From NCBI RefSeq assembly GCF_011045215.1, contig NZ_CP049201.1: a stretch of DNA of 64,000 nucleotides; one strand, given 5' to 3'. The notes under the pieces were generated by a model that had not been told where the DNA came from, searched no databases, and was given only the letters and a program-made list of their open reading frames with translations. This document shows positions 47,473 to 64,000 of the stretch, piece after piece. The position numbers and the translations under genes are program-made. Source of the stretch: Escherichia coli. Lineage in GTDB: Bacteria > Pseudomonadota > Gammaproteobacteria > Enterobacterales > Enterobacteriaceae. The first letter of the stretch is position 1. Every line of letters starts with the position of its first letter.

Positions 47473-48111
47473 ACCAGGAGCCGCGGCTCCTTTGCGTATC
47501 CTTTTATGTCTCCTCACCGTCTGGTCGGTGTCCTGCTGAGACTTCTAACTTCCTGTTTTTGTTGGTGTTGTTTTTACACCTTCCAATCATGATTGGTGCT
47601 GGCGTCCCTGTGCTTTTAATTATAGTGTATTGATATTTAATATTTTTGTTTAAATTAATTTCGTTATGGGTTCCAAAAAGGAACCATAAAGTAGAACCAC
47701 AGAACCTCGCATGGTTCCAACATGCCTAGCGACTTCAAAATAACACGCTCTATGGCAAACTAAATGTAAGTGTGGCTGGATATTTAGCGTCTGATTACTG
47801 AGAGGGTCAATAAAAACTGCTCTATCTCAAATACTGTAGTGGCCCATAAACTTGTCCGCTTGAGTCGATGGTGTACCTCGTCCGTTCAGGCCCGGAGTGG
47901 CTAATTAGCAGAGTATTCATGTCTGCTATGAGCGAGGATCGGACGTAAAACAACTGTAAAAAACTATTTAACTCAGGCAGAAATGTCAAGATTCAGTGAA
48001 AATGTCTAATCACTGGTTCGTTAGAAATGCCCATATGTTGAAAAGGCTGCTGCAAAAAAGTCTCTCGCAGCGGCCTCTTTAATATAACGTCATTGTGTGC
48101 ATCATCTTTAA

Positions 48112-49464
48112 TTATGGGTTTAACTCAAACTGTTCCCCGTTTATTAATTTTCGCAATAAGTCAAGTGCCTCAGATGAGTATTTTCCGACACCACTTTTCC
48201 CAGATTTAATGAAAACATGATAATTGTTGTCTGATGCTTTAATGTTGAAGTCGGTTAGTTTTCTTAATTTTTCGAATTCTTGATTAACATAGTGCCACGA
48301 TCCCATGTCGAGAATCCTTGCCAGATCAGACATTGTATATGGGAAACTAGCATTTAGTGCCTGCCCATTATTGAGTTCAGCGATACCATACATTTTTGCT
48401 AATGCATCATCATGCTCTGCAATATTGCGGAACATCTCAAAATCGTATGGAAGTTCTTGTTTAACAAGGGATTCTGATGCGAATGTGTACGTTCTGGCTA
48501 GAAATGCACGCACAAGTTTTGGATTAACGCTAATTTCCGGTGTATTAGATGATAACGCATCAAAAATCCAACCAAAATTATTTGCGTATATCACCTTGAT
48601 TCGAACGCTTTTATTCTCACCAACACCGATTAGCAATTCCTTTTGATGAGAACCAGTGGCCTCGCAGTCCTTACTGAAGGAGACAAGATAAATATTTGGA
48701 ATCAATGCATTATTGGGAGCGATGATTTCATCTATATCAGAGAGAATTGCCTTTATGTTTTCATCATTGATACTGTACCCAAAGAAAAACAAGGGGTGTT
48801 CAGCAAAATATGTTAGCAACTTAGCACTGATATATTTCTTACGTTTATAGAAATCAACATAATCTTCATTTGTAATAACAATACTTTCAACTTCATGACT
48901 GCTACCATGAATTTTCATGATTTCGCCATAAGATGAATAATTCACTTTAACAACGTTATGACCAACTATTGCCTGATAATTGTCAAATATTTTTTCTAAT
49001 GTGTCGTCATAATTTGTTGTGATTATTGCATGAGGTTTTACTTTCCTTAATTTCTGAACTTCCTCTGTATATTCCATGTTCGAGAAATCAACGGAGTTTG
49101 ATAATTCATTCAGAATGGATGCAATTTCATGCTTAATATAAATATCTTTTGGAGTCGTTCCTTCAAAGTATGTCTCTGGATAGCGATCCTTGCCATCATC
49201 CCAAGCCCATTCAGCATAGAAGTCACAAAAATCGCTAGCAATCAAAGGTTTGTTATCACCCTTTGTTTGGCTGTAGTAACCATAAGGGCGTTTGATCAAG
49301 GGGCATATTTCCGCTAGTTGCTTTAATAGACCTTCCCAGTCAGGCGCTTTTATATATCGTTGTGAAATACCTGCACCCATGAATAAAATGGGTTGGACTT
49401 GTAAGTTTTCAAGGCAAGATTTAACATCTTCGATTATTTCTTCTTGATATTCCGTAAAGTCCAT
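48112..49464 (-). CDS. SIR2_2-domain protein (predicted NAD+-consuming defence effector) with uncharacterised ~190-aa C-terminal domain
   Basis: 450-aa ORF with RBS; motifs LFMGAGIS (res 27-34), ITTNYDD (147-153), KIHGS (184-188), FFGYS (227-231) typical of defence-associated SIR2-like domains such as the ThsA/DSR N-termini; ~35% GC. Confidence 0.75.
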   Translation of the reverse strand: MDFTEYQEEIIEDVKSCLENLQVQPILFMGAGISQRYIKAPDWEGLLKQLAEICPLIKRPYGYYSQTKGDNKPLIASDFCDFYAEWAWDDGKDRYPETYFEGTTPKDIYIKHEIASILNELSNSVDFSNMEYTEEVQKLRKVKPHAIITTNYDDTLEKIFDNYQAIVGHNVVKVNYSSYGEIMKIHGSSHEVESIVITNEDYVDFYKRKKYISAKLLTYFAEHPLFFFGYSINDENIKAILSDIDEIIAPNNALIPNIYLVSFSKDCEATGSHQKELLIGVGENKSVRIKVIYANNFGWIFDALSSNTPEISVNPKLVRAFLARTYTFASESLVKQELPYDFEMFRNIAEHDDALAKMYGIAELNNGQALNASFPYTMSDLARILDMGSWHYVNQEFEKLRKLTDFNIKASDNNYHVFIKSGKSGVGKYSSEALDLLRKLINGEQFELNP

Positions 49465-49894
49465 ATAGTTACCTCAGGGATAGGTGATTGCTATGTGATG
49501 CACCGCGAAACGGTTCGGGGCTTTGTGACACCCAAACTTTACCCCGGTTTCCCAGCGTTTCCTTTGTATATAATATCATTGAAGTTAATTGCGTTTCTCA
49601 GAAATCTTCTTAGGATGTGATTGCAATAACGGCAACACAGCGCACACATCGCGGCTGATCAGTGAGTATGAAGTGGTTTACTGAATTTGGCCGCCTGAAT
49701 CGAGAGACAAAATGTCCGCTCCTGGCACTAAGCAGAAGTTCCCGAACAACGTAAGCTGGCATATGCCCTCGTTCCTCCGTGGGGACTATCGATCTATTTG
49801 CCGGTTGTGTTTAAGCAATATCGCCAGCGGCGTGAGCTCTCAGTGCATTCAATCAAGCTCACAAATCACACAGTCTTTACTTTTTTTAGATTCC

Positions 49895-50303
49895 CTAATG
49901 GTTTCGCGTCATAGCCTCAGCCAGATAAACCTGAGCTGCTTTAGGGGTATATGCCTTTCCGAGCATAAAGGATACTGTTTCTATGAAAACTGATCGCGAG
50001 AGCACGATTAGGAGATCAGAACCTGATTTGACATTGATACTGGCTATCAGCGATGGGCAGTTCTCGAATACATCTGACAATCATTTACCTCATTAAGTTT
50101 TATTTCCAGAAGTGCCGTGATCCAGCACGAGTGCTGATAATCAATATCACTTGGGTAATGATTGACAAGTTCACTAAACAACGAGCAGATATTTTAAAAT
50201 TGCCTGCAGCTTCCACATCACCAGGCAGAGGCGTCAGACCCTTAGCACCATACGATTCATAGAGTAATTCCCAATATAGTTGATGCTGAATTTCTTTGTT
50301 CAT
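49895..50303 (-). pseudogene. degenerate or frameshifted ORF pair between the SIR2 and ankyrin genes
   Basis: Minus-strand ORFs 50100..50303 (67 aa) and 49895..50080 (61 aa) in different frames; no recognisable motif. Confidence 0.25.
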
Positions 50304-50352
50304 GTTGAGGCAGTATATTGAAACAATGAGAATGAATCACACATATAAGCTC

Positions 50353-51345
50353 TCACAATCTTCCGCCGTTTTTGACTGTTGCAGATATACTTTTAGCAGG
50401 TTTTAAATGCCTGGAGATTTCTTTCTGTTCTCGACGGATTTTGTATGAATTAATTTCTTCATAATCCTTGTGTTTATTTATTTTTGATAAATCAACCAAG
50501 AGATTATTTCTTATCATCCACTTTACAATTCGCTTGTTGATATCTTTATAGAGAGGGCCGCCTTTATATTTATAGAAGTGAATATCATGAATTTCACTGA
50601 TGAAATCAAGTATGGATAAGATTTCTTTATAATCACCAATGTAACTGTTAATGGTGAAATGGTCTTTATTAAGTTCTATTTTGAATCCATGTTCAGAAAG
50701 GTAATACAAGAAAAAGGCTGAGTCGAGATCACAAAAATCTACATGCAGCGTTCTTCTGTCAAATTTATCAATATGCGAGAGAATGATATCATGTAATTCA
50801 TAATCATATACATTTTCAATAAATCCTTTCCCTGAATGATCAATTTGATTGACATTGCATCCAGCATCTATTGCTACGGATAAAACTTCCGGGGAAAGGG
50901 GCATGAAGAGAATATTCATTCCTTTTTTATCGATGTGATTTATATCACAACCAGCATTAATTAATTCTGTCAATCCTTCAGCATTCCTGTAATGTTCAAA
51001 AATGCATGTGTAGCCATTAGTATCCGTATGCGAGGTGTCTAAACCCAGTTCAATCAGTTTCTTCAGTATTTCTGGATTTTTTTGATGAAAGAGCGCATTT
51101 TGCCCATGTCCGTTGATATGGTGTATATTAATTCCATAACTGAGCAGGCAATCCATGGCTTCCAGGGTTCTGCAGGCAAAAATGGCATTGTTGCCGTTAC
51201 TGTTAACAGCATTGATGTCATAGCCTATTTTTAAAGCTTTCTTTATATCATCAGGTGATCTTGCATTGAAGAATGATTCAGAAATGGCAAGGTCTAATGC
51301 CTTTTCTAATAATCCCTTTTGTAATAAGGATATGACTAATTCCAT
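50353..51345 (-). CDS. ankyrin-repeat protein with uncharacterised C-terminal domain
   Basis: ORF 50353..51357; about five degenerate ANK-like repeats (NSNGNNAIFAC..., NGHGQNALFH..., TNGYTCIFEH..., KKGMNILFMP..., HSGKGFIENV...); second ATG at 51345 has GGGGGTG RBS. Confidence 0.7.
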   Translation of the reverse strand: MELVISLLQKGLLEKALDLAISESFFNARSPDDIKKALKIGYDINAVNSNGNNAIFACRTLEAMDCLLSYGINIHHINGHGQNALFHQKNPEILKKLIELGLDTSHTDTNGYTCIFEHYRNAEGLTELINAGCDINHIDKKGMNILFMPLSPEVLSVAIDAGCNVNQIDHSGKGFIENVYDYELHDIILSHIDKFDRRTLHVDFCDLDSAFFLYYLSEHGFKIELNKDHFTINSYIGDYKEILSILDFISEIHDIHFYKYKGGPLYKDINKRIVKWMIRNNLLVDLSKINKHKDYEEINSYKIRREQKEISRHLKPAKSISATVKNGGRL

Positions 51346-63451: not shown

Positions 63452-63544
63452 ATCTAACCTTTTTTAAAATGTGTTCATGATCTACAGTTAGCGCATTGGT
63501 AAAATAAGTCAAGGCAGTGTCGAAATTTATAAATAAGATAGGTG

Positions 63545-63573
63545 GAGCAGATTGCTAATTAGGTAATCTGCTC
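63545..63573. promoter_or_regulatory. candidate oriT inverted repeat (GAGCAGATTGC-N7-GCAATCTGCTC) upstream of mobC
   Basis: Perfect 11-bp inverted repeat in the AT-rich leader of the mob operon. Confidence 0.4.
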
Positions 63574-63628
63574 TGGGTAAAAATAGGGTTCATATTAAAT
63601 TCATTATGACAGTGAGGAGGGGCGGAGG

Positions 63629-63979
63629 TTACAATCTACGTTTTACTGGCATTAAAGAGATTGTTTGTTTCATAATTTCGCTAAGTTTCTTTTTCTCATG
63701 TTCTGCTATATATTTACAAATCTCATCATGTCGAATATGCTGTTCCAGTTGTTTTTTATCCATTTTGATGTCATTGCGGATAAACCATTTAATGGTTTCA
63801 ATGTCCCCGCGTAAATCATAACCTCGCAGTACAATATGGCGAAAATGTGTGTTGCTGATATCTGTCTTCTTCTTTAGTTCACTGAAGAAAGAGCTCATTT
63901 CATTTTCATTGGCACTTAGATAAACCTGGCAGTTATCAGAGATAGTAAAGTTAAGGTTTTTCTTCTGAAGCAAATCCAT
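63629..63979 (-). CDS. hypothetical protein
   Basis: 116-aa ORF, AT-rich, upstream of the mob module. Confidence 0.4.
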   Translation of the reverse strand: MDLLQKKNLNFTISDNCQVYLSANENEMSSFFSELKKKTDISNTHFRHIVLRGYDLRGDIETIKWFIRNDIKMDKKQLEQHIRHDEICKYIAEHEKKKLSEIMKQTISLMPVKRRL

Positions 63980-64000
63980 TATCTGCAGACTTTCGCTGTT

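What the first reader, a model, noticed from the sequence alone, without database searches (positions are those of the whole stretch)
47473..64000. Strain-specific integrative mobilisable island next to ypjA, replacing what K-12 carries here
Downstream of ypjA the K-12 gene content I remember (ypjF/yfjZ and the rest of CP4-57) is absent. Instead there is an AT-rich island with an alpA regulator, IS3, IS21 and IS50-like elements, a mobC-relaxase module with a candidate oriT, small lipoproteins and the SIR2/ankyrin locus. The integrase and attachment site presumably lie beyond 64 kb (ssrA side). AlpA- and mob-bearing islands of this kind are known carriers of defence cargo.
Basis: partly seen in the sequence, partly recalled or inferred. 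Interest (0 to 1): 0.55.

Follow-up and report, generated by a model that had tools for sequence, protein, structure and literature searches.

The report
Mobilisable defence island at tmRNA site
The DNA after ypjA is the far end of a roughly 30-kb mobile island inserted at the tmRNA gene where K-12 has CP4-57; it carries plasmid-type transfer and replication genes plus anti-phage cargo, and belongs to a known class of element found in about 2% of E. coli.

Summary
K-12 homology stops at window 47604, exactly at K-12's pseudo-ssrA att remnant (psaA). None of CP4-57 follows. The rest of the window is AT-rich foreign DNA (GC 0.40 against 0.50).

It encodes a SIR2 protein (PADLOC candidate PDC-S25), ankyrin proteins, DUF6387 and AlpA. 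It also encodes a plasmid Rep homologue beside an iteron-like non-coding region, two lipoproteins, and an IncQ2-type MobC plus relaxase. An IS21-family element carrying a nested IS4-family element is unique to this strain.

Near-identical islands in complete genomes continue with two more ankyrin genes, a defence-cargo slot (type I RM, Kiwa or NACHT), a conserved oriT-like hairpin, two ParB-like genes, a serine recombinase, an IntA-family integrase and ssrA.

Four details need correcting:
- The island is not unique to this strain: 128 of 5426 complete E. coli genomes carry the mob backbone.
- "IS3" is only a scar.
- No convincing oriT lies in the window; the family oriT motif sits about 12 kb beyond it.
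- SIR2 is a stand-alone exchangeable cassette, not a partner of the ankyrin gene.

This is a new member of a known kind: an integrative mobilisable element at the E. coli tmRNA defence hotspot.

The parts
47594..47604 (.). attR core (psaA-type pseudo-ssrA end), TGGTGCTGGCG. In ssrA sense this reads CGCCAGC---ACCA.
   Evidence: K-12 homology ends here, at annotated psaA. Relatives have TGGTGGGCTGGCG. The ssrA 3' end is TGGTGGAGCTGGCGGG on this strand.
47605..47720 (.). Island arm next to att. 47605-47690 is shared with all ssrA-type relatives, including the minimal JKHS016 form. GGAACC/GGTTCC repeats at 47669-47718 are possible integrase or RDF arm sites.
   Evidence: The arm-site reading is an inference.
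47925..49733 (-). Exchangeable SIR2 cassette (gene 48112-49464, 450 aa; PADLOC candidate PDC-S25).
   Evidence: PDC-S25 4e-77, ThsA/Dsr weaker. PF13289. Replaced by AAA/Shedu/HEPN in ET745 between conserved flanks 47944 and 49711. The same 1.8 kb is 95% identical in a Pantoea megaplasmid, and a copy 81% identical sits next to RM genes on an IncFII plasmid.
50353..51357 (-). Ankyrin-repeat protein Ank1. It is a backbone gene of the ssrA-type subfamily and not a partner of SIR2.
   Evidence: Retained when SIR2 is replaced. Homologues 69-76% identical sit beside DUF6387 in Phytobacter and Superficieibacter.
51520..51862 (.). IS scars: an IstB (IS21, ISSen3-like) fragment at about 51520-51667 and an IS3 transposase fragment at about 51734-51862.
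   Evidence: Annotation of relatives mapped by the 29397-nt offset. 85% match to ISSen3 istB.
52103..52957 (+). DUF6387 protein, part of the integration/regulation module.
   Evidence: PF19924 1.2e-61. Always next to AlpA, and next to the integrase in the tRNA-Leu versions.
53080..53286 (+). AlpA-family HTH protein (excision regulator or RDF).
   Evidence: PF05930 on the homologue in L010.
53491..53766 (+). 91-aa protein of unknown function, last gene of the DUF6387-AlpA module.
   Evidence: No family hit.
53787..53813 (.). Bidirectional terminator hairpin between convergent genes. The module-swap breakpoint lies just after it, at about 53942.
   Evidence: The 97.8% identity to the tRNA-Leu islands starts at 53942.
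53940..54245 (-). 101-aa protein of unknown function, downstream of rep.
54315..54878 (-). Winged-helix protein (187 aa), homologue of small-plasmid iteron Rep proteins.
   Evidence: 47% identity over 171 aa (E 2e-59) to the only annotated CDS of a circular 2675-bp Klebsiella plasmid that has 4 x 22-bp iterons upstream. Also found on 3.1-kb MobV plasmids with iterons. Weak Pfam hits to HTH_36, Rep3_N and phage O.
54879..55872 (.). Conserved non-coding region, proposed oriV. It comprises an AT-rich stretch 54879-55260, a hairpin 55273-55311, 49-bp repeats 55327-55431 (core AAATACGCTTCGCGCA, with a third degenerate copy at 55471), and a 200-nt GC-rich palindromic core 55453-55651.
   Evidence: nhmmer finds the core only in loci that also carry the Rep homologue.
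55873..56052 (+). 5' part of a 141-aa backbone gene, interrupted by IS21. The 3' part is at 60190-60440.
   Evidence: Intact in relatives, L001 26476-26901.
56053..60189 (-). IS21-family element (ISSso4-like; istA and istB intact), flanked by the GTTAT duplication at 56048-56052 and 60190-60194. This insertion is unique to this strain.
58615..60104 (+). IS4-family element (471-aa transposase) nested in the IS21 terminal repeats, with the 9-bp duplication TGATGCCAA at 58606-58614 and 60105-60113.
60190..60440 (+). 3' part of the interrupted 141-aa gene.
60577..61322 (-). Two small lipoprotein genes (60577-60897 and 60924-61322).
   Evidence: Lipoboxes in the translations. Conserved across the family.
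61360..61635 (-). 91-aa zinc-ribbon membrane protein downstream of the relaxase.
61821..63050 (-). MOBP-type relaxase related to IncQ2 Mob, with invariant Y19 and H106-D-D...H113-x-H115 and a variable (PV)n tract.
63047..63451 (-). MobC-type relaxosome accessory protein.
63545..63573 (-). Hairpin GAGCAGATT/AATCTGCTC. It is most likely the terminator of the upstream ankyrin gene and not an oriT.
63629..64000 (-). 3' part of ankyrin gene Ank2, cut by the end of the window.

Best explanation
Window 47605-64000 is the att-distal half of an integrative mobilisable element (IME) sitting in the 3' end of ssrA, in the same attB that CP4-57 occupies in K-12.

Inferred whole element, from ssrA towards ypjA:
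- an IntA-family tyrosine integrase
- a serine recombinase
- two ParB-like genes
- oriT
- cargo slot 1 (type I RM, Kiwa or NACHT)
- Ank3, a 146-aa gene and Ank2
- MobC and the relaxase
- a membrane protein and two lipoproteins
- a 141-aa gene
- an iteron-type origin
- Rep
- two small genes
- AlpA
- DUF6387
- Ank1
- cargo slot 2 (here SIR2)
- attR

Proposed working:
1. AlpA switches on the integrase, and the element excises as a circle.
2. The plasmid-type Rep keeps the circle replicating from the adjacent origin.
3. MobC and the relaxase nick the oriT hairpin. The strand is exported through the pore and coupling protein of a co-resident conjugative plasmid, because the island has none of its own.
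4. In the recipient the element integrates at ssrA.
5. The cargo genes protect the host, and so the island, from phage.

Shown here:
- the boundary and att core
- the gene identities
- integrase and ssrA in relatives
- cargo exchange between variants
- a near-identical backbone in other genera
- a conserved, covarying oriT-like hairpin in relatives

Inferred, not shown:
- excision
- Rep-driven replication
- nicking at that hairpin
- the helper plasmid type
- defence activity of SIR2
- that this strain's unseen half matches its relatives
For: Boundary. The island begins at psaA.

Integrase and ssrA. They are present in five annotated relatives, up to 99.7% identical. That integrase is 48% identical to K-12 IntA, and the AlpA homologue is 34% identical to K-12 AlpA. 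AlpA overexpression induces CP4-57 excision (PMC10107115).

Mobilisation genes. Relaxase with PF03432 and the His triad; MobC 42% identical to an IncQ2 MobC. No mating-pore genes are annotated in any relative.

Recent horizontal movement.
- The relaxase is 94-99% identical in Enterobacter, Klebsiella, Cronobacter, Salmonella and Citrobacter.
- The backbone 53942-64000 is 97.8% identical to islands at tRNA-Leu(CAA) in K. quasipneumoniae and E. hormaechei, which carry a different integrase.
- The same tmRNA-int...relaxase...AlpA-DUF6387 order occurs in Klebsiella indica and other species.

oriT. The motif AAGCAAGGGCTAAC followed by a hairpin lies directly upstream of mobC in 26 of 46 family loci, and between ParB and cargo in the E. 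coli islands. In an alignment of 31 sequences, 86.6% of cells pair. Nine pairs show double changes against 3.8 +/- 1.1 in shuffles, and 0 of 500 shuffles reach that value.

Rep. Homology to the sole gene of 2.7-kb iteron plasmids, which have no ColE1-type RNA. The adjacent non-coding DNA co-occurs with the Rep homologue.

Class already described. IMEs with defence cargo at the E. coli tmRNA hotspot #9 (PMC10121019).
Against: - The integrase, ssrA, oriT and cargo slot 1 are outside the window. They are known only from relatives.
- This copy carries damage. There is a 2-bp deletion in the att core relative to relatives, an IS21::IS4 insertion in a backbone gene, and IS scars beside DUF6387.
- No excision product, transfer or replication has been observed.
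- The Rep model had low confidence (pLDDT 55.6) and matched only generic winged-helix regulators.
- In the window's subfamily the oriT motif is about 12 kb from its relaxase, which is unusual.
- PDC-S25 is only a candidate defence family.
Confidence: 0.8

Rival explanations
1. This particular copy is a decaying, no longer mobile remnant of such an element. On this reading it is fixed in the chromosome and kept only for its cargo.
For: - The att core has lost two further bases compared with relatives.
- A 4.1-kb IS21::IS4 composite interrupts a conserved backbone gene.
- IS3 and IS21 scars lie beside DUF6387.
- Excision would rebuild ssrA with a 3-nt deletion in the acceptor stem. The 1-nt version of that deletion already inactivates tmRNA (PMC10107115).
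Against: - The relaxase, MobC, Rep, AlpA and DUF6387 reading frames are all full length.
- The GCTGGCG half of the att core is intact.
- The family as a whole has clearly moved between genera recently.
- CP4-57 still excises across an equally imperfect psaA.
Confidence: 0.3
2. The ssrA island is a tandem composite of two elements. One would be a small ssrA-integrating unit (integrase, serine recombinase, ParB genes). The other would be a separate IME that lost its own integrase next to DUF6387.
For: In the tRNA-Leu versions the integrase sits directly beside DUF6387-AlpA. In the window, that position holds IS scars.
Against: - In JKHS016, DUF6387 lies about 115 bp from the att core (85-bp arm plus about 35 bp), with no room for an integrase.
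- The order tmRNA-int...relaxase...AlpA-DUF6387 recurs in other genera.
- The family oriT lies on the integrase side of the cargo.
- No internal ssrA-like repeat was found in the window.
Confidence: 0.1
3. It is a phage satellite (P4-like or PICI), like other AlpA-bearing elements at ssrA, and is moved by helper-phage packaging.
For: An IntA-family integrase and AlpA at a site that P4-like satellites also use (PMC10121019). The SIR2 and DUF6387 proteins have PHROG matches.
Against: - No match to 50,697 phage records.
- No primase-helicase, capsid-remodelling or packaging genes in the window or in annotated relatives.
- A relaxase, MobC and oriT are present instead.
Confidence: 0.03
4. It is the remnant of a self-transmissible ICE that has lost its type IV secretion genes.
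For: It has a relaxase, ParB-like genes and an integrase, as ICEs do.
Against: None of the 54 related loci inspected for backbone genes, and none of the annotated islands, shows mating-pore or coupling-protein genes adjacent to this relaxase. The closest relaxases are on small mobilisable IncQ2 plasmids.
Confidence: 0.03

Closest known systems
CP4-57 cryptic prophage of E. coli K-12 (intA-alpA element at ssrA)
   Same: It uses the same attB and leaves the same psaA-type attR next to ypjA. Its integrase is in the same P4/IntA family (48% identity) and it has an AlpA homologue (34%). Excision would likewise alter the ssrA 3' end (PMC10107115).
   Different: No other gene is shared. CP4-57 has no relaxase, MobC or Rep homologue. 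DUF6387 is unrelated to YfjH. AlpA lies at the far end from the integrase rather than beside it.
Integrative mobilisable elements with defence cargo at E. coli hotspot #9, the tmRNA locus (Hochhauser et al. 2023, PMC10121019)
   Same: Same site, same class (relaxase but no pore), and defence systems as cargo.
   Different: That study classifies islands in bulk. This specific backbone was not found by the four literature searches aimed at it, of six run in all.
IncQ2 (pTF-FC2 / pRAS3-type) plasmid mobilisation module
   Same: The relaxase is 42% identical over its N-terminal 250 aa and is typed MOBP. MobC is 42% identical. The oriT-like motif AGCAAGG(G/T)(C/G)TAAC plus a hairpin is shared.
   Different: This module is chromosomal and integrative. 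It has no RepA/B/C genes. In this subfamily the oriT is separated from mobC by about 12 kb of cargo.
Small iteron plasmids of Enterobacteriaceae (2.7-3.2 kb, e.g. NZ_CP041107)
   Same: Their only sizeable gene is a 45-47% identical homologue of the 187-aa protein, and direct repeats lie upstream of it.
   Different: The plasmids have four tidy 22-bp iterons about 130 bp upstream. The island has 49-bp repeats about 450 bp upstream, plus a long palindromic core. Replication has not been tested for either.
Stand-alone SIR2 defence proteins (PADLOC PDC-S25; more distantly ThsA, DSR1/2)
   Same: The SIR2 domain and HMM match. Genomic behaviour is that of a single-gene cassette beside RM systems.
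   Different: The match covers residues 10-338 of 450, and the C-terminal 110 aa are unassigned. PDC-S25 is a prediction without experimental support that I could find.

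Membership tests
Integrative mobilisable element (IME) | Site-specific integrase with flanking att repeats | tested here: inconclusive
   The attR core is in the window at 47594-47604. The integrase and ssrA (attL) are seen only in relatives up to 99.7% identical. This strain's own integrase lies outside the window.
Integrative mobilisable element (IME) | Relaxase, with or without accessory protein, and an oriT | tested here: inconclusive
   The relaxase and MobC are present and intact. The oriT-like hairpin is found in relatives beyond the window but not in the window itself.
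Integrative mobilisable element (IME) | No mating-pore (T4SS) or coupling-protein genes of its own | tested here: met
   None appear among the window ORFs or in the fully annotated islands of relatives.
Integrative mobilisable element (IME) | Excision and helper-dependent transfer demonstrated | not testable with these tools
   Only indirect evidence is available: a 97.8% identical backbone in other genera at another integration site.
P4-like satellite / PICI | Primase-helicase or Pri-Rep gene and capsid-hijacking or packaging genes | tested here: not met
   There are no such PHROG, NCBIfam or Pfam hits and no match in the phage collection.
MOBP (IncP/IncQ2-type) relaxase | N-terminal catalytic Tyr and an HxDx(n)HxH metal-binding triad within a MobA/VirD2 nuclease domain | tested here: met
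   PF03432 3.6e-22. Y19 and H106, D107, H113 and H115 are invariant in the family alignment. The nearest typed plasmids are MOBP.
PADLOC PDC-S25 (single-gene SIR2 candidate defence) | Match to the family HMM; stand-alone gene | tested here: met
   4.1e-77 over residues 10-338. It occurs alone in unrelated contexts. Defence activity was not tested.
Iteron-type plasmid replication module | Initiator protein plus adjacent directly repeated binding sites and an AT-rich stretch | tested here: inconclusive
   The protein homology is strong. Repeats and an AT-rich region are present and co-occur with the gene. The structure model is uninformative and function is untested.
CP4-57-type element | Shared gene content beyond int and alpA | tested here: not met
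   No nucleotide match to CP4-57 inside 47605-64000.

The most novel reading that the evidence does not exclude
This would be one representative of an unnamed family of replicative IMEs spread across Enterobacterales, with four architectural features.
1. An IncQ2-type MobC-relaxase pair is separated from its own oriT by a slot about 12 kb long into which defence systems are loaded.
2. A plasmid-type Rep and origin gives the excised circle an episomal phase.
3. The int-DUF6387-AlpA module is swapped wholesale between tmRNA and tRNA-Leu targets on a backbone that stays 98% identical.
4. Three ankyrin-repeat genes are fixed backbone components, perhaps acting on the recipient or on rival elements.

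In addition, excision would act as a switch that cripples tmRNA.
Probability: 0.3. Interest if true: 0.45.

Novelty: new member of a known kind. Interest (0 to 1): 0.3.

Why it matters
The result explains cleanly why this strain differs from K-12 at the ssrA-ypjA junction. It also places the neighbouring SIR2 gene in context: SIR2 is exchangeable cargo at the end of a mobilisable island, not part of an operon with the ankyrin gene.

More broadly, the family shows how defence genes travel between enterobacterial genera. They travel on small helper-dependent elements with two defined cargo slots and interchangeable integration modules.

None of this is surprising to specialists in mobile elements. 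IMEs at the tmRNA hotspot that carry defence systems are already documented.

Tried and rejected
- **Hairpin upstream of mobC (63545-63573) as oriT.** It is followed on the minus strand by CACCTATCTTAT, which resembles the IncP nick region as I remember it. I rejected it because variants with 85% and 69% identical relaxases have unrelated hairpins followed by T-runs at the same place. That is what a terminator of the upstream ankyrin gene would look like. The family-wide conserved motif is a different sequence.
- **SIR2 plus ankyrin as a two-gene defence system.** Rejected, because the ankyrin gene stays when SIR2 is swapped out, and SIR2 occurs alone elsewhere.
- **DUF6387 as the counterpart of CP4-57 YfjH.** No similarity.
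- **Internal ssrA-like att repeats that would reveal a tandem array.** None were found.
- **Known RNA families in 36-64 kb.** Only the tRNA was found.
- **Phage collection.** No match.
- **Solved structures.** Nothing for the relaxase, and only marginal Cro or MarR hits for the Rep homologue.
- **AlphaFold model of the Rep homologue.** Low confidence, and Foldseek returned only generic winged-helix regulators, so it does not separate initiator from regulator.
- **Literature searches for this island by ssrA/ypjA and by PDC-S25.** Nothing specific turned up. A search for the IncP nick consensus string found nothing relevant.
- **Integrase arm sites.** The GGAACC repeats near attR and the GGGACCC repeats near the integrase are similar but not identical. 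I left this as an observation.

Full report
**Where the window lies.** It runs from the serV-argV tRNA cluster through ileY (39588-39663) to ypjA (42571-47433, + strand), reversed relative to the K-12 map. BLAST against K-12 MG1655 2752000-2790000 is continuous through ypjA and ends at window 47604. In K-12 that position is the annotated psaA, the 14-bp pseudo-ssrA repeat that closes CP4-57. The sequence there is TGGTGCTGGCG (47594-47604). Relatives and K-12 have TGGTGGGCTGGCG, and the ssrA 3' end on this strand is TGGTGGAGCTGGCGGG. From 47605 onwards nothing matches CP4-57. Without its IS elements the region has GC 0.398, against 0.496 for the rest of the window. The true boundary is 47605, not 47473.

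**Gene content of 47605-64000**:
- SIR2 protein, 48112-49464 (−). PF13289; PADLOC PDC-S25 at 4e-77.
- Ankyrin protein Ank1, 50353-51357 (−).
- Short fragments of an IS21 istB and an IS3 transposase, about 51520-51862.
- DUF6387, 52103-52957 (+).
- AlpA homologue, 53080-53286 (+).
- Two small genes of unknown function.
- Winged-helix protein of 187 aa, 54315-54878 (−).
- About 1 kb of non-coding DNA.
- A 141-aa gene split by an insertion.
- Two lipoprotein genes and a small membrane-protein gene.
- Relaxase, 61821-63050 (−). PF03432, with invariant Y19 and an H-D-D...H-x-H triad.
- MobC-type accessory gene, 63047-63451 (−). It is 42% identical to the MobC of an IncQ2 plasmid.
- The 3' end of a second ankyrin gene, cut by the window edge.

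**The insertion sequences.** The insertion is an IS21-family element (56053-60189, duplication GTTAT). An IS4-family element (58615-60104, 9-bp duplication) has landed in its terminal repeat array. No complete E. coli genome has the IS21 junction.

**What lies beyond the window.** Many complete genomes carry the same DNA without the IS pair, at up to 99.7% identity. I inspected five of them: LR-58-1, ET745, BS74R-D, 19AR1724 and E24377A. In each, the island continues with a 146-aa gene and a third ankyrin gene, then a variable block, then usually two ParB-like genes and a serine recombinase. It ends with a 409-aa tyrosine integrase directly beside ssrA and smpB. The variable block holds a type I restriction system, Kiwa plus type I, or a NACHT protein with a RelA/SpoT protein. 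The integrase is 48% identical to K-12 IntA. No mating-pore or coupling-protein gene is annotated in any of these islands.

**How common it is.** The mob module is present at 80% coverage or more in 128 of 5426 complete E. coli genomes, always on the chromosome. The DUF6387-AlpA module of this subtype is in 39. The relaxase is 94-99% identical in proteins from Enterobacter, Klebsiella, Cronobacter, Salmonella and Citrobacter. A scan of one genome per species found 54 related loci across Enterobacterales, Pseudomonas and some betaproteobacteria.

**Modularity.** In K. quasipneumoniae and E. hormaechei the stretch equivalent to window 53942-64000 is 97.8% identical. It is joined there to a different DUF6387-AlpA pair and a different integrase (35% identical to the ssrA one, 99% identical between those two genera). 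The element sits at tRNA-Leu(CAA). The breakpoint coincides with a bidirectional terminator at 53787-53813. Other family members use tmRNA, tRNA-Leu or tRNA-Pro.

**Cargo at the ypjA end.** In E. coli JKHS016 the att arm (window 47605-47690) is followed almost at once by the DUF6387 promoter region (window 51935 onwards). The block 47691-51934 of the window is therefore an addition at the end of the element. Within that block, the ankyrin gene recurs beside DUF6387 in Phytobacter and Superficieibacter. The SIR2 segment is a discrete unit. ET745 has 6.9 kb (AAA ATPase, Shedu, HEPN) in place of window 47945-49710. The same 1.8 kb (47925-49733) is 95% identical in a Pantoea megaplasmid among unrelated genes, and an 81% copy lies beside restriction genes on an IncFII plasmid. 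SIR2 is stand-alone cargo, not a partner of the ankyrin gene.

**oriT.** The only notable hairpin upstream of mobC in the window (63545-63573) is replaced in diverged variants by unrelated hairpins followed by T-runs. I read it as the terminator of the ankyrin gene. Across the family, a different sequence lies directly upstream of mobC in 26 of 46 loci. It is AAGCAAGGGCTAAC followed by an inverted repeat and CCCTTGCTTTT..CCCTTCGGTTGAAAA. An IncQ2 plasmid has the same pattern. On an alignment of 31 sequences, a nested hairpin pairs in 86.6% of cells. Nine pairs changed on both sides, against 3.8 +/- 1.1 in shuffles, with 0 of 500 shuffles as high, and the shifted controls were much lower. In the E. 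coli ssrA islands this motif lies between the ParB-like genes and the cargo block, for example at L001 41712-41812. That is about 12 kb upstream of mobC and outside the window. The window has no copy within two mismatches, and three-mismatch hits are at chance level. The variable block therefore sits between oriT and the relaxase operon.

**Replication module.** The 187-aa protein has only weak Pfam hits (HTH_36, Rep3_N, phage O). However, it is 47% identical over 171 residues (E 2e-59) to the only annotated gene of a circular 2675-bp K. pneumoniae plasmid. That plasmid has four 22-bp direct repeats 135 bp upstream of the gene. Homologues also sit, again behind iterons, on 3.1-kb circular plasmids whose only other large gene is a MobV relaxase. 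These plasmids have no ColE1-type RNA.

Upstream of the island gene lie four elements:
- an AT-rich stretch;
- a hairpin, 55273-55311, kept by a compensatory C:G to T:A change in S. diarizonae;
- 49-bp repeats present in one to three copies in different genera;
- a 200-nt palindromic core, 55453-55651.

A profile of the core finds it only in loci that also have the protein. I infer a Rep plus origin that lets the excised circle replicate, with probability about 0.6. The structure model was too poor to add anything.

**Consequence of excision.** In K-12, AlpA-induced excision of CP4-57 rebuilds ssrA with the psaA end (CGCCAGC-CCACCA). That deletes U357 and inactivates tmRNA (PMC10107115). In ssrA sense, the window's att core is CGCCAGC---ACCA. 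Excision here should leave an even more damaged acceptor stem. This is an inference, but it makes excision costly. Together with the IS damage, it is the main argument that this copy may be immobile.

**Comparison with known elements.** The element works like an integrative mobilisable element. It shares its site and integrase family with CP4-57, and its transfer genes with IncQ2 plasmids. IMEs carrying defence systems at the tmRNA locus of E. coli are already described as hotspot #9 (PMC10121019). I found no paper naming this backbone. I file it as a new member of a known kind. The displaced oriT, the plasmid-type Rep, the integrase-module swap and the three ankyrin genes are points of modest interest.

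Noticed in passing
window 47594-47604: The att core has lost two G residues relative to all relatives inspected. In ssrA sense it reads CGCCAGC---ACCA. This form is not among those tabulated for ssrA islands in PMC10107115. Excision would rebuild ssrA with a 3-nt gap.
   Followed up: partly
window 61687-61777: Five GATC sites fall within 91 bp, between the relaxase stop and the next gene. This ties for the densest cluster in the window and is conserved in an 88% diverged variant. It may be a Dam- or SeqA-sensitive control region.
   Followed up: partly
window 62160-62215 (relaxase residues about 280-300): A (Pro-Val)n tract in the relaxase varies in length between homologues, which range from 395 to 413 aa in total.
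   Followed up: no
window 43112-43422: ypjA has a 310-bp segment where K-12 and LR-58-1 have about 150 bp. This is repeat-length variation in the autotransporter passenger domain.
   Followed up: no
L016 (NZ_CP151055.1 1727292-1745990): A related DUF6387-AlpA element, with two integrases and a relaxase, sits next to another autotransporter gene, yejO.
   Followed up: no
L007 (NZ_CP195804.1): In the closest relative, 19AR1724, the chromosomal stretch from ygaQ/ileY to ypjA is missing, and the island lies about 1.2 kb from glaH.
   Followed up: no
L001 42527-45862 and the equivalent regions in L004, L007 and L078: Two paralogous ParB-like genes and a 518-aa serine recombinase lie between the integrase and the oriT-like hairpin. 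On the plasmid model this would be the leading region. Their role is unknown, and they are absent from ET745.
   Followed up: no
L078 (E. coli E24377A, NC_009801.1 2907105-2953688): The sequenced ETEC reference strain carries this island with Kiwa plus a type I restriction system in the cargo slot. It also has a split SIR2 gene and a different IS21 element in a lipoprotein gene.
   Followed up: partly
L013/L014 2076-5572: Another family variant carries an E1/E2/JAB (ubiquitin-like conjugation) gene set upstream of the oriT-like hairpin, next to norR-ygbA.
   Followed up: no
window 49465-50352: An 890-bp stretch between SIR2 and Ank1 has no convincing ORF. The cassette boundary falls inside it, at about 49711-49733.
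   Followed up: partly
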